Positions 39,401 to 42,400 of a stretch of 64,000 nt of DNA are shown piece by piece. The notes under the pieces are model-generated. The model made no database searches. It was given only the letters and a program-made list of their open reading frames with translations, and was not told the origin of the DNA. Positions within the stretch are counted from its first letter, which is position 1; each line of letters opens with the position of its first letter. This stretch comes from Octopus vulgaris (lineage: Eukaryota). The stretch is from NCBI GenBank assembly GCA_951406725.2, contig OX597843.1:18476001-18540000 (forward strand), written 5' to 3'. Position numbers and translations under genes: made by a program.

Positions 39401-42400
39401 CAACTCTAATACATATACATTTCTTTACATCAGAAAGCAAATATTTCTTGTTGTTGCTATGCATTGCACTATTTGGTTCGTAAAATATGGATATTTACTT
39501 ATATTCTGTAGATTACTCGTTATTTCAACGGAATTTGCAGTGTCAAACATGTTCAAAGATGATATGCAATGATTTAGATGTAACCAGGTGTCCAGGATCA
39601 ATGGTAAACAGAAATCTTACTTTCTTCCTGTCCATTAAAATATTCCGATCGCCGTCACTCGCAAGACAGTATGACTAGGTAGCTTGTAGTATGCTTTTGC
39701 TAATTGTTTTAGGTGCCTGTGTAGACATACAAACACCCTATCGGTCTTCTTATCCATGACTCAATGAGATAACAAGGATGTGACGATTGAAGGGAGAAAT
39801 GGATGACCATCACTAGGCTGGGACCCATTTTCAGTTGAATAGACTGGAACAAAATGAAATGAACTGCCTTGTTTAAGGGCACAACGTTTAACCCTTTCCA
39901 GGAAACGAACACACGAACTTATGAATAACCTTTCTCCGACAATCATGGCTGTCCTTAGAGTAGGATGCATGAATGTATGTGGCCAGAAGTCAGCTTGGGA
40001 TCAAGATTCCTTGCAGAATGACCTCGGCTCGCTAGACTTAGATCGGATAGTCGGATTCAAGCGTGGCCCTACCACCTCACAGAGATTACAGGGAGCGGAT
40101 TGAATCAGTTAAGAAGCAAATGACAGTTTTACTTCGTCTGGTGGCCATAGCAAAAGAAGCGGATTAAATCCTCCCTCACAGCAAGTAGTAAAATAAGCGC
40201 ACCTGGAAATTATGGGTGCGGCTCATATTATTTCAATGGAGTAGGTCCTCAAAACCACCGTCTTATTTTCAAGTTCTTTTAACCATCGTTTCAGTGCTAT
40301 AAATTCCCACTCCACCAAATTTCCATTGTTCCAAGTTCTTTTTTAAAAAGCCCAAAAATACAGTTCTTAAAATATAAAATAATCAAGGAAAAAGAAGGAA
40401 GAGAAAAAAGTCTAAACAAAAAGGAAGGAGAGAAAATTAACAGTTCAATAGAAAGTTTTTCTTTAAATAAAAGATAGATGAAGAGAGAGAGCAACAGTTC
40501 AAAACACAGCAAAGGCCACTCGGTACTCCAGGCCACAATTTTAACACAATTGTTAAAGAGTTAATTGCTGAAAAATCATTCCAATTTTCTTCTCATGGGT
40601 ACTCCTTGACAGGAACAATATTGGTGAAATCTTTTCTAAAAATTCTCACGGAGTTATTCCTGGACAAACGCTATTCCCAAACAAAATTTTGCGGCAGGAT
40701 ACGCCCACCAAAACAATAATTTTCACAGTTAAGTGAAAAACTATTCACTCAGCTACAGGTAGACTAGAATCCAGCGAGGACTTCTTGTTTGTAAAAAATA
40801 ATTGCGGCAGACAACAGGCCCCCACTAGACCCCCCAAAAAGTCTTACCTTACAGCTGAGTTTCAAAAATCTTCAATTTAAGACGGCTTCAAAAACACGTC
40901 TTTACAGCTTCAGTATCAAACACAACTCTGATTCGCACGTGCTCACTGAGGTAAGCAAGCAACTTACCACACAGCCACTCCTACGCCTTACCACACAGCC
41001 ACTCCTATACTGTTATCTTTCAACACTTTGACGACTTGGTTTCGTTTTAATTTGCTGCTTTGGGATAATTCTTAAGCAGTGATTAAACTTTCTCACATAG
41101 TAAACATCCCCAGTGTTCTTATTGCTGTTGATGTTGCAGTAGTTAGCAGTAGTCGTACTAGTAAATATTGTGTTTGTAGTATATAATTTTCGTATCTCAT
41201 ATTACAGCCAGTATGCCGGTTCGCATTATCAAAGAACGGTGTTACACTGAAGACTGAAAAGTCCTGCAGCTCATACAGGAAATGTGTTCAAACTATGAGA
41301 GACAATACCGCTGCATGCGATAAATGGCCCAGTGGGACTACTTGTACTGGCTGTTGCTTCGGAAACTTATGTAACAAGAATGATTTCGTTGGTAAGTGTT
41401 TTTCATTGTTTAATATAACACCACTTGGTTTATTGCAAATTGATAGTCAATAAGAATATTGTATAATAGTTGATACATGGGAAGATATTTTGATGTGTGT
41501 ATACGTGTGTGCATGTGTGTATATATCTGCGTATACACATGCGGTCGTACATACACGCATACAGACTCACATACGCATATATATGTACATATGTGTGCAG
41601 GTATTGGTCCTTCAATCGTTTTAGGTCCATAATCCACGCATGCACCTAGATTAATGAAATATTTTGATGCCACGTTTTTCCTGAACCACAATGAAATGGA
41701 AGTCGGCTGGTATTTACATAAAGGGAACGTAGCTGCATGCATAGAAGGCAACACAATGCAAAAGAGAAAGAAACTGCACTGATACACTTACCTCTGATGA
41801 CAACATAGCAGAAATGATCAGAGAGACAATAACAACACGAAAACAAAACTACAAAACATGCTGAAGAAGAAATGGAGAGGAAACTTACTCCATGGCTTGA
41901 TAGAGTCTAAATAAAAGCCAACAATGAGCGAAAAGCTTTGGACTAGAAACTGAAAGACTGATTCTTGCAGATCAAGACTAACGTCTGACTACTAACGACT
42001 ATAAAAGCAAAATAATGGAAACAGACCCTAAGACCAAATGCAGAATTTGAAGCTAAGATTTCGACGAGATACACTTTTAATCACATAGATGTGTTAATGT
42101 CAATCACCACAACATCTCCCCATTTGAGACTGTCTTCCGCTAGAGGGGAATAATTTTTTCACACCACCTCTCCCTTTTAAAGATTTACTTCCCTCGGAAG
42201 CTAAAATTTTTTTTTCTTTTTGGGACCACCTCCAACAATTCTGTACGCTTTCTTTTCCTTGTGCGACGATTTCTTGTGAAGCTGGCACATCAAAGATATC
42301 GTAGAGAACTTCATTGCCTACTTCGTTCCTTGTATCTCTTTATTTTCAGCTGATTCTTGTGTCTTATGTTCCCATTTCACATTGGTCACCACGTACTTCC

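What the first reader, a model, noticed from the sequence alone, without database searches (positions are those of the whole stretch)
39512..41391. Three-finger (Ly6/uPAR-like) domain embedded in an adhesion GPCR ectodomain
Seen: LQCQTC...C...C...C...KSC...C...C...[11 protein letters not shown], 12 Cys across exons 17-18. Established: LxCxxC and CCxxxxCN bound LU/three-finger domains, usually with 8-10 Cys in small secreted or GPI-anchored proteins, several of which modulate nicotinic receptors or channels. I do not recall LU as a standard adhesion-GPCR module. Inference: a shuffled-in interaction module with one extra disulfide; any cis partner is unknown.
Basis: partly seen in the sequence, partly recalled or inferred. 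Interest (0 to 1): 0.72.

Follow-up and report, generated by a model that had tools for sequence, protein, structure and literature searches.

The report
Three-finger domain in octopus adhesion receptor
An octopus cell-surface adhesion receptor carries a small disulfide-rich 'three-finger' domain in its outer part; the domain is real, but this design is old, shared with snails, clams, worms and starfish, and has already been noted in print.

Summary
Confirmed. Exons 39512-39603 and 41208-41391 encode a 92-residue, 12-cysteine module in an Octopus adhesion GPCR: 15 LRR exons, LRRCT, module, SEA-like, HRM, GAIN/GPS, TM1 (29 exons, 1016 aa, no stop; 97% identical to an O. sinensis 'ADGRG6-like' protein with 7tm_2). 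AlphaFold2 (pLDDT 72) plus two structure searches give a three-finger fold with human Lynx2/LYPD1 on top. The 'extra' disulfide is the known Lynx2 loop-III pair: spacing from Cys5 on is identical. The module is a phase 1-1 exon cassette, tandemly repeated in some paralogs, but not an octopus invention: 42 of 120 related receptors carry it, from gastropods, bivalves, chiton, annelid, nemertean and starfish, and none of 50 vertebrate ones. LU-bearing adhesion GPCRs are already reported from starfish (2022, 2024) and molluscs and arthropods (2026). Added here: the full LRR-LU-SEA-HRM-GAIN layout, the Lynx2 typing, and a tree suggesting a single origin in early bilaterians. The most likely role is a protein-binding module next to the LRRs that feeds the stalk and tethered agonist. 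No partner was identified. New member of a known kind.

The parts
39512..39603 (+). Exon 17: N-terminal part of the LU module (Cys1-4, loop I); phase 1 in, phase 0 out
41208..41391 (+). Exon 18: C-terminal part of the LU module (Cys5-12; loop II hairpin, loop III helix, CCxxxxCN); phase 0 in, phase 1 out
   Evidence: (95% to P0005)
422..30211 (+). 15 LRR exons of 72 nt each, all phase 2-2 (starting at 422, 3010, 4793, 8852, 10603, 11492, 13064, 13723, 18401, 19393, 20802, 23631, 26700, 27742, 30140); signal peptide and LRRNT not found in the window, presumably upstream
   Evidence: LRR_8 on P0005
37262..37419 (+). Exon 16: LRR C-terminal cap (CxC motif), directly before the LU module
   Evidence: named from its motif, no Pfam hit
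43177..49496 (+). Exons 19-21 (43177-43259, 46807-46859, 49339-49496): SEA-like domain, phase 1-1 cassette
   Evidence: sub-cutoff Pfam SEA hits in homologs P0046 (E 7.8e-5), P0044, P0041; profile hits SEA-bearing amphioxus P0106 at iE 5e-5; no Pfam hit on the window's own exons
52239..53912 (+). Exons 22-23: hormone-receptor motif (HRM), phase 1-1
   Evidence: (PF02793 E 0.001, below cutoff)
55252..61988 (+). Exons 24-28: GAIN domain ending in the GPS exon 61839-61988; GPS tripeptide Y-L-T in place of H-L-T; tethered-agonist-like TSFALL follows
62801..62916 (+). Exon 29: first transmembrane helix of the 7TM; the rest lies beyond the window
   Evidence: aligns with P0005 residues ~692-729

Best explanation
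The module is a Lynx2/LYPD1-type LU (three-finger) domain, an old, fixed part of the ectodomain of an ADGRG-like adhesion GPCR (LRR array - LRRCT - LU - SEA-like - HRM - GAIN - 7TM). Shown here: the fold prediction, the architecture and the spread across animals. Inferred: it is a protein-binding module that, with the LRRs, grips an extracellular partner (matrix or a neighbouring cell's surface protein). Binding or pull on this distal part would pass through the SEA-HRM-GAIN stalk and expose the tethered agonist to the 7TM, as described for ADGRG6. The partner is probably lineage-specific, because the surface is poorly conserved while the cysteine frame is fixed.
For: Fold: AF2 pLDDT 71.9, pTM 0.65, two beta-hairpins, a helix and a strand. 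Foldseek top hit Lynx2 6ZSS, prob 1.00, TM 0.61, and by title all 44 listed rows are LU, three-finger toxin or TGF-beta-receptor entries. VIA top hit Lynx2, Z 7.2, rmsd 3.0, 80 aligned; ranks 1-31 three-finger, first unrelated Z 3.8. Cys conserved in 27-31 of 31 rows; 66 of 67 twelve-Cys modules nearer Lynx2 than Lypd6 spacing, 47 exact, many being Octopus near-copies. [quoted passage not shown] In relatives the same slot holds other binding modules: Sushi in amphioxus P0087, weak PAN in Lineus P0094, CUB-PTX in zebrafish, C-type lectin in Glandiceps P0090. SEA-HRM-GAIN stalk and tethered agonist as in ADGRG6 (PMC11475505 passages).
Against: No ligand or binding was tested. Non-Cys identity to 19 other spiralian receptors is 14%, about the same as LRRCT and SEA (12%) and below HRM (25%) and 7TM (46%), which fits a spacer equally well. 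Many paralogs have 1-3 N-glycosylation sequons in the domain, which could mask it; P0005 has none. The GPS reads Y-L-T, so autoproteolysis is uncertain. No Foldseek hit reached E 0.001, and Z 7.2 alone is within the range the tool calls common; the case rests on the whole top list being one fold. Pfam LU hits are all below cutoff.
Confidence: 0.5

Rival explanations
1. The LU domain is mainly structural: a rigid, disulfide-locked spacer or hinge that positions the LRR array, or clamps the ectodomain shut against HRM as CUB and the PTX-SEA linker do in Gpr126. The LRRs alone bind ligand.
For: Surface conservation no higher than LRRCT or SEA; only 8 non-Cys columns reach 60% conservation in the 44-row alignment; copy number varies 1-3 among paralog models; glycosylation sequons in many paralogs; it occupies the position just before SEA, like the linker in the closed Gpr126 state (PMC11475505).
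Against: Relatives fill the slot with recognised binding modules, not linkers. A 12-Cys domain kept in molluscs, annelid, nemertean and starfish is more than a spacer needs (inference).
Confidence: 0.3
2. The domain works in cis like Lynx2, modulating nicotinic or other Cys-loop receptors on the same cell, and so couples a channel to a GPCR.
For: Closest structure and Cys type is Lynx2, a nicotinic-receptor modulator; PMC11595613 proposes such a role for starfish LyAr2 (passages). Octopus-expanded aGPCRs with LRRs are expressed in axial nerve cord, suckers and skin (PMC6408891; this gene's membership of that group not tested).
Against: Sequence identity to Lynx2 is 19-22%, mostly cysteines; a shared fold shows no function. 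The domain sits above SEA, HRM and GAIN, far from the membrane, unlike GPI-anchored Lynx2. PMC9410279 calls the grouping of the starfish GPCR domains with Lynx2 irrelevant. [quoted passage not shown]
Confidence: 0.12
3. LU domains were inserted independently into spiralian and starfish ADGRG-like receptors (or only recently into octopus), so the shared layout is convergent.
For: The cassette is phase 1-1 and mobile within the family. In the best tree starfish LU receptors group with LU-less hemichordate and vertebrate receptors (90/90), needing 3 changes. PMC13719153 leaves independent origin open.
Against: An octopus-only origin is excluded by LU in gastropods, bivalves, chiton, annelid and nemertean. 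Asterias P0084 has the same 12-Cys type right after an LRR cap and is found by a profile built before any non-cephalopod row was added (iE 1e-4). One LU clade is not rejected (AU p 0.146), and one gain plus losses also fits.
Confidence: 0.3
4. The exons are not part of the receptor (gene-model artefact or a nested separate LU gene).
For: Skipping both exons keeps the frame; this gene's own transcript was not seen.
Against: The module sits in the same place in 42 of 120 related receptors across phyla, including intron-free contigs; no signal peptide or GPI tail exon of its own was seen.
Confidence: 0.02

Closest known systems
Starfish LU-bearing adhesion GPCRs LyAr2 (XP_033635706.1, 'ADGRG2-like', LU 224-305) and XP_033635539.1 ('ADGRG6-like'), and the mollusc/arthropod LU-7TM proteins of PMC13719153
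   Same: One LU domain in the ectodomain of an ADGRG-annotated receptor; LyAr2's domain is closest to Lynx2 (58% similarity); molluscs are listed with LU+7TM and the figure legend names GPS and LRR. Starfish P0084 and P0096 have LRR-LU-HRM-GAIN-7TM.
   Different: The octopus gene has at least 15 LRRs, a SEA-like domain where starfish P0084/P0096 have a Ser/Thr-rich stretch, a shorter loop I (Cys2-3 gap 4 against 8 in other spiralians) and many paralogs. The published accessions themselves were not fetched; the 2026 figure and supplement could not be read.
Human Lynx2/LYPD1 (PDB 6ZSS)
   Same: Top structural match in both searches; 12 Cys with extra pairs in loops I and III; spacing 16,5,10,8,2,0,4 identical; long helix in loop III.
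   Different: Lynx2 is a single GPI-anchored domain; here the domain is internal to a >1000-aa receptor, 19-22% identical, with a shorter loop I.
Vertebrate ADGRG6/GPR126 (and ADGRG2)
   Same: SEA-HRM-GAIN-7TM order; vertebrate G6/G2 are among the best GAIN-7TM relatives and fall in the same part of the tree.
   Different: CUB-PTX instead of LRR-LU; LU found in 0 of 50 named vertebrate rows; the SEA-only profile did not hit the ADGRG6 SEA.
Octopus-specific adhesion GPCR expansion 'group 3' (PMC6408891)
   Same: Octopus aGPCRs with GPS; LRR in 5 of 22, Death domain in one. Paralog P0034 has LRR, LU, 7tm_2 and Death.
   Different: No LU, Ly6, uPAR, three-finger or SEA term in its 3 supplementary files; identity of this gene with a group-3 member not tested.
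TGF-beta/activin receptor ectodomains
   Same: Three-finger domain inside a transmembrane receptor; weak sequence hit to ACVR1 (E 1.8) and Z 5.1-5.5 for type I receptors.
   Different: Lower structural scores than Lynx2; single-pass kinase receptors; type I receptors have 10 Cys.

Membership tests
LU / Ly6-uPAR three-finger domain | 60-90 residues with the 10 ancestral cysteines (PMC6600238) | tested here: met
   79 residues from the L before Cys1 to the final N; 12 Cys = 10 plus a loop-III pair
LU / Ly6-uPAR three-finger domain | Asn directly after the last Cys | tested here: met
   CN in the window; N in 35 of 42 filled rows
LU / Ly6-uPAR three-finger domain | Three-finger fold | tested here: met
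   Predicted model of the 96%-identical P0005 module, pLDDT 71.9; Lynx2 Z 7.2, rmsd 3.0, 80 aligned; ranks 1-31 all three-finger; Foldseek agrees. Prediction only.
LU / Ly6-uPAR three-finger domain | Disulfide pairing 1-5, 2-3, 4-6, 7-8, 9-10 | not testable with these tools
   No coordinates were returned; pairing inferred from Lynx2
Typical LU gene cassette (as in PMC6600238) | Two exons flanked by phase-1 introns | tested here: met
   92+184 nt, phase 1 in and out
Typical LU gene cassette (as in PMC6600238) | Internal intron at the tip of loop 2 | tested here: not met
   Intron is phase 0, between Cys4 and Cys5. A gene-structure trait, not part of the protein-domain definition; not filed as a typical cassette.
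Pfam PF16975 UPAR_LY6_2 / other LU-clan models | Score above curated cutoff | tested here: not met
   14.4 bits vs 31.5 for exon 18; no hit for the whole P0005 module; homologs E 0.002-0.2, all sub-cutoff
Lynx2/LYPD1 protein | Six-disulfide pattern with loop-III pair and helix | tested here: met
Lynx2/LYPD1 protein | Single GPI-anchored domain | tested here: not met
   Internal domain of a receptor; Lynx2-type domain, not a Lynx2 protein
Lynx2/LYPD1 protein | Modulates nicotinic receptors | not testable with these tools
   needs electrophysiology
Adhesion GPCR | GAIN/GPS followed by a secretin-type 7TM | tested here: met
   GPS E 8e-14 on the window exon; 7tm_2 E 3e-37 on the 97%-identical P0005; TM1 in window
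Adhesion GPCR (cleavage-competent) | GPS tripeptide H-L/I-S/T | tested here: inconclusive
   Y-L-T here, 1 of 47 LU-bearing proteins with the motif; 40 have H-L-T. GPR125 cleaves without the His (PMC9539791 passages).
ADGRG6/GPR126 orthologue | CUB and PTX domains | tested here: not met
   none on P0005; present on zebrafish P0132
ADGRG2/6 co-orthologue group | One orthogroup with vertebrate ADGRG2/G6 in a GAIN-7TM tree | tested here: inconclusive
   Tree broadly follows the species tree when rooted on two amphioxus ADGRG7-like rows; deep supports 83/95 and 92/90, no distant outgroup
Ritschard et al. group 3 expansion | Placement within that clade | not tested
   gene ids not matched

The most novel reading that the evidence does not exclude
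LRR-LU-(SEA)-HRM-GAIN-7TM is the ancestral bilaterian form of the ADGRG2/6 line. It was kept in molluscs, annelids, nemerteans and starfish, multiplied in octopus with variable LRR and LU copy number as a diversified recognition family, and its LRR-LU tip was swapped for CUB-PTX in vertebrates, lectin in hemichordates and Sushi in amphioxus. GPR126 would then have invertebrate co-orthologues, many molluscs with few copies, in which its ancestral ligand logic can be tested.
Probability: 0.5. Interest if true: 0.55.

Novelty: new member of a known kind. Interest (0 to 1): 0.36.

Why it matters
Annotation pipelines miss this domain (all Pfam hits are below cutoff), so a widespread invertebrate receptor design is hidden under names like 'ADGRG6-like' or 'slit-like'. 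It names a specific, expressible 92-residue domain in an octopus-expanded receptor family and bears on an open question raised in PMC13719153: whether LU-GPCRs arose once or several times. It is not a new kind of system, and no function is shown.

Tried and rejected
AlphaFold2 with a 6-row alignment failed (pLDDT 33.6) and was not used. Sequence search of solved structures with the module profile gave nothing significant (best E 0.75; ACVR1 E 1.8). The same search with alignment A2 was swamped by LRR and GAIN hits. ESM Atlas gave no usable hit for the module or the SEA-like part. The octopus-only profile against 1.84 billion representatives gave 25 hits, all from this receptor family where long enough to judge; this first suggested a cephalopod-only module, which overturned once relatives were collected by GAIN-7TM. 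A search with P0036 residues 180-520 found only one more protein. A first post-LU profile included HRM and was discarded, then rebuilt SEA-only. PML_CC, zf-C2HC5 and RING hits were rejected as cysteine-driven noise. A Lypd6-type assignment was rejected on spacing. A planned prediction of LU against HRM-GAIN could not be made, so the clamp idea is untested. Cluster names for unnamed proteins could not be looked up. Supplements of PMC13719153 and PMC11431876 were unreadable: whether the 2026 paper lists this very Octopus gene, and whether the 'ADGRG6' proteins in octopus skin mucus belong to this family, stay open. Only 120 of 664 GAIN-7TM relatives were listed and scanned; no arthropod row was among them.

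Full report
Observation. The finding spans two + strand exons, 39512-39603 and 41208-41391, both AG/GT bounded. The module has 12 Cys spaced 2,4,7,6,16,5,10,8,2,0,4 and ends CxxCCxxxxCN. The terminal motif is expected 0.01 times per shuffled window; the 8-Cys pattern never appeared in 200 shuffles.

Host gene. Exon 18 found 21 proteins among 27 candidates, all named Octopus. The closest, P0005 (O. sinensis 'adhesion GPCR G6-like'), is 707/730 identical to the model and has LRR_8, HRM, GAIN, GPS and 7tm_2 matches (HRM and GAIN below cutoff). The window is therefore from an Octopus close to O. sinensis (inference). LU, SEA-like and HRM are each phase 1-1 cassettes. Four paralog models carry 2-3 tandem LU copies, and several carry two SEA-like copies.

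Fold. Pfam gives only sub-cutoff hints (UPAR_LY6_2, E 0.045, 14.4 vs 31.5 bits). AlphaFold2 failed with 6 rows (pLDDT 33.6). With 31 rows, including 20 from the profile search, it gave pLDDT 71.9 and pTM 0.65: strands 9-14, 17-25, 31-40, 43-52, helix 53-68, strand 76-80. The query was the P0005 module, 96% identical to the window's. Foldseek ranked human Lynx2/LYPD1 first (E 0.014, prob 1.00, TM 0.61); no hit reached E 0.001, but by title all 44 listed rows are LU proteins, three-finger toxins or TGF-beta-receptor ectodomains. The exhaustive search of 48,161 chains also ranked Lynx2 first (Z 7.2, rmsd 3.0, 80 aligned); all 16 chains with Z of 5 or more and ranks 1-31 are three-finger, and the first unrelated chain has Z 3.8. 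From the cysteine numbers in PMC7582953 (passages), Lynx2 spacing is 2,8,8,7,16,5,10,8,2,0,4, with extra disulfides in loops I and III and a long loop-III helix. The last seven gaps equal the window's; 66 of 67 twelve-Cys modules are nearer Lynx2 than Lypd6 (many are Octopus near-copies). So the 'extra' disulfide is a known subtype. Disulfide pairing was not measured. One difference from the typical LU gene (PMC6600238 passages): the internal intron is phase 0 between Cys4 and Cys5, not at the tip of loop 2.

Spread. A search with the GAIN-7TM region of P0036 gave 664 proteins, of which 120 were listed. A two-round local profile found the module (iE < 1e-3) in 42 of these 120: Octopus 8 of 10, gastropods 11 of 13, bivalves 11 of 13, chiton 1 of 1, annelid 1 of 1, nemerteans 1 of 3, starfish 2 of 2, unnamed 7 of 8; hemichordates 0 of 7, amphioxus 0 of 12, named vertebrates 0 of 50. 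Round 2 included the round-1 hits; the annelid, nemertean, chiton and Patiria rows were new in round 2. Control: 0 of 785 shuffled proteins passed, best iE 0.11. The six mollusc negatives are short models of 642-762 aa; the two inspected start downstream of the LU position. Other spiralians have the Lynx2-like gap of 8 between Cys2 and Cys3, so the gap of 4 is a cephalopod shortening. In LU-less relatives the slot holds Sushi (amphioxus), weak PAN (Lineus), C-type lectin (Glandiceps) or CUB-PTX (vertebrates).

Tree. GAIN-7TM trees of 56 rows (quick) and 29 rows (careful; near-duplicates, truncated models, long branches and the two LU-less nemertean rows left out) roughly follow the species tree: molluscs 92/90, cephalopod-type rows 100/100, and a deuterostome group 83/95 in which starfish LU receptors sit with hemichordate and vertebrate G2/G6 receptors (90/90). 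The LU label needs 3 changes; one LU clade is not rejected (AU p 0.146). Both readings fit a single origin before the protostome-deuterostome split, but two insertions are not excluded, and the root rests on two amphioxus ADGRG7-like rows.

Mechanism. Shown: fold prediction, position, conservation of the Cys frame. Inferred: a binding module beside the LRRs that signals through SEA-HRM-GAIN and the tethered agonist, as described for ADGRG6 (PMC11475505 passages); confidence 0.5. Against it, non-Cys identity of the module to 19 other spiralian receptors is 14%, like LRRCT and SEA (12%) and below HRM (25%) and 7TM (46%), which also fits a spacer or clamp (0.3). A Lynx2-like action on nicotinic receptors rests on fold alone (0.12). 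The GPS reads Y-L-T, unique among 47 LU-bearing proteins with the motif, so cleavage is uncertain; GPR125 cleaves without this His (PMC9539791 passages).

What is known. PMC9410279 (passages) and PMC11595613 (passages and supplement rows) report LU domains in two starfish adhesion GPCRs, one Lynx2-like. PMC13719153 (parts 1-3 of 4 read; figures and supplements not readable) reports LU-GPCR genes in molluscs, arthropods and echinoderms, names GPS and LRR in its figure legend, and leaves independent origin or loss open. PMC6408891 (part 1 of 6, passages, supplement search) describes an octopus-specific aGPCR expansion with LRRs but no LU. The first 300,000 of 412,533 characters of a 2026 aGPCR review hold none of Ly6, uPAR, three-finger, mollusc or octopus. 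I found no paper spelling out LRR-LU-SEA-HRM-GAIN or its relation to ADGRG6 in the searches; the library lacks most subscription journals. That cephalopod chemotactile receptors derive from nicotinic receptors is recalled, not from a call.

Verdict. A real LU domain of the Lynx2 type in an ancient invertebrate adhesion-GPCR family, expanded in octopus. The kind is known from recent bioinformatic reports; the full layout and the likely single origin are modest additions. New member of a known kind, interest 0.36.

Noticed in passing
window 61839-61988: GPS tripeptide is Y-L-T, shared with P0005 only; three paralog models have R-L-K, probably uncleavable; 40 of 47 LU-bearing proteins keep H-L-T.
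   Followed up: partly
window 422-30211: The 15 LRR exons arose by tandem duplication with their flanking introns (e.g. 17069-18730 vs 25407-27030, 83% over 1.7 kb). P0005 has only the last three, so LRR number may vary by isoform or model.
   Followed up: partly
window ~15830-15930: Decayed copy of an LRR exon (69% to the 10603 exon region) whose acceptor AG appears lost.
   Followed up: partly
window 43177-49496: Unannotated SEA-like domain between LU and HRM; duplicated in several paralog models; no GSVVV-type cleavage motif seen.
   Followed up: partly
P0034 (paralog): LRR-LU adhesion GPCR with an intracellular Death domain (Pfam E 3e-6), as noted for one group-3 member in PMC6408891.
   Followed up: no
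P0001, P0003, P0010, P0011, P0024: Octopus models named slit-like or LRRC15-like have LRR-LU(n) without GAIN or 7TM; may be fragments or secreted forms.
   Followed up: no
P0005 module vs paralogs: The P0005 module has no N-glycosylation sequon, while close paralogs have up to three.
   Followed up: no
window 23750-24489: Tandem repeat of about 184 nt, 97% identical copies, in an intron.
   Followed up: no
window ~32300-36700 and ~50100-51000: Intronic stretches that look like retroelement remains by eye (reverse-strand ORF-like region; ORFs at 50116-50976 with RT-tail and zinc-finger-like motifs); not tested.
   Followed up: no
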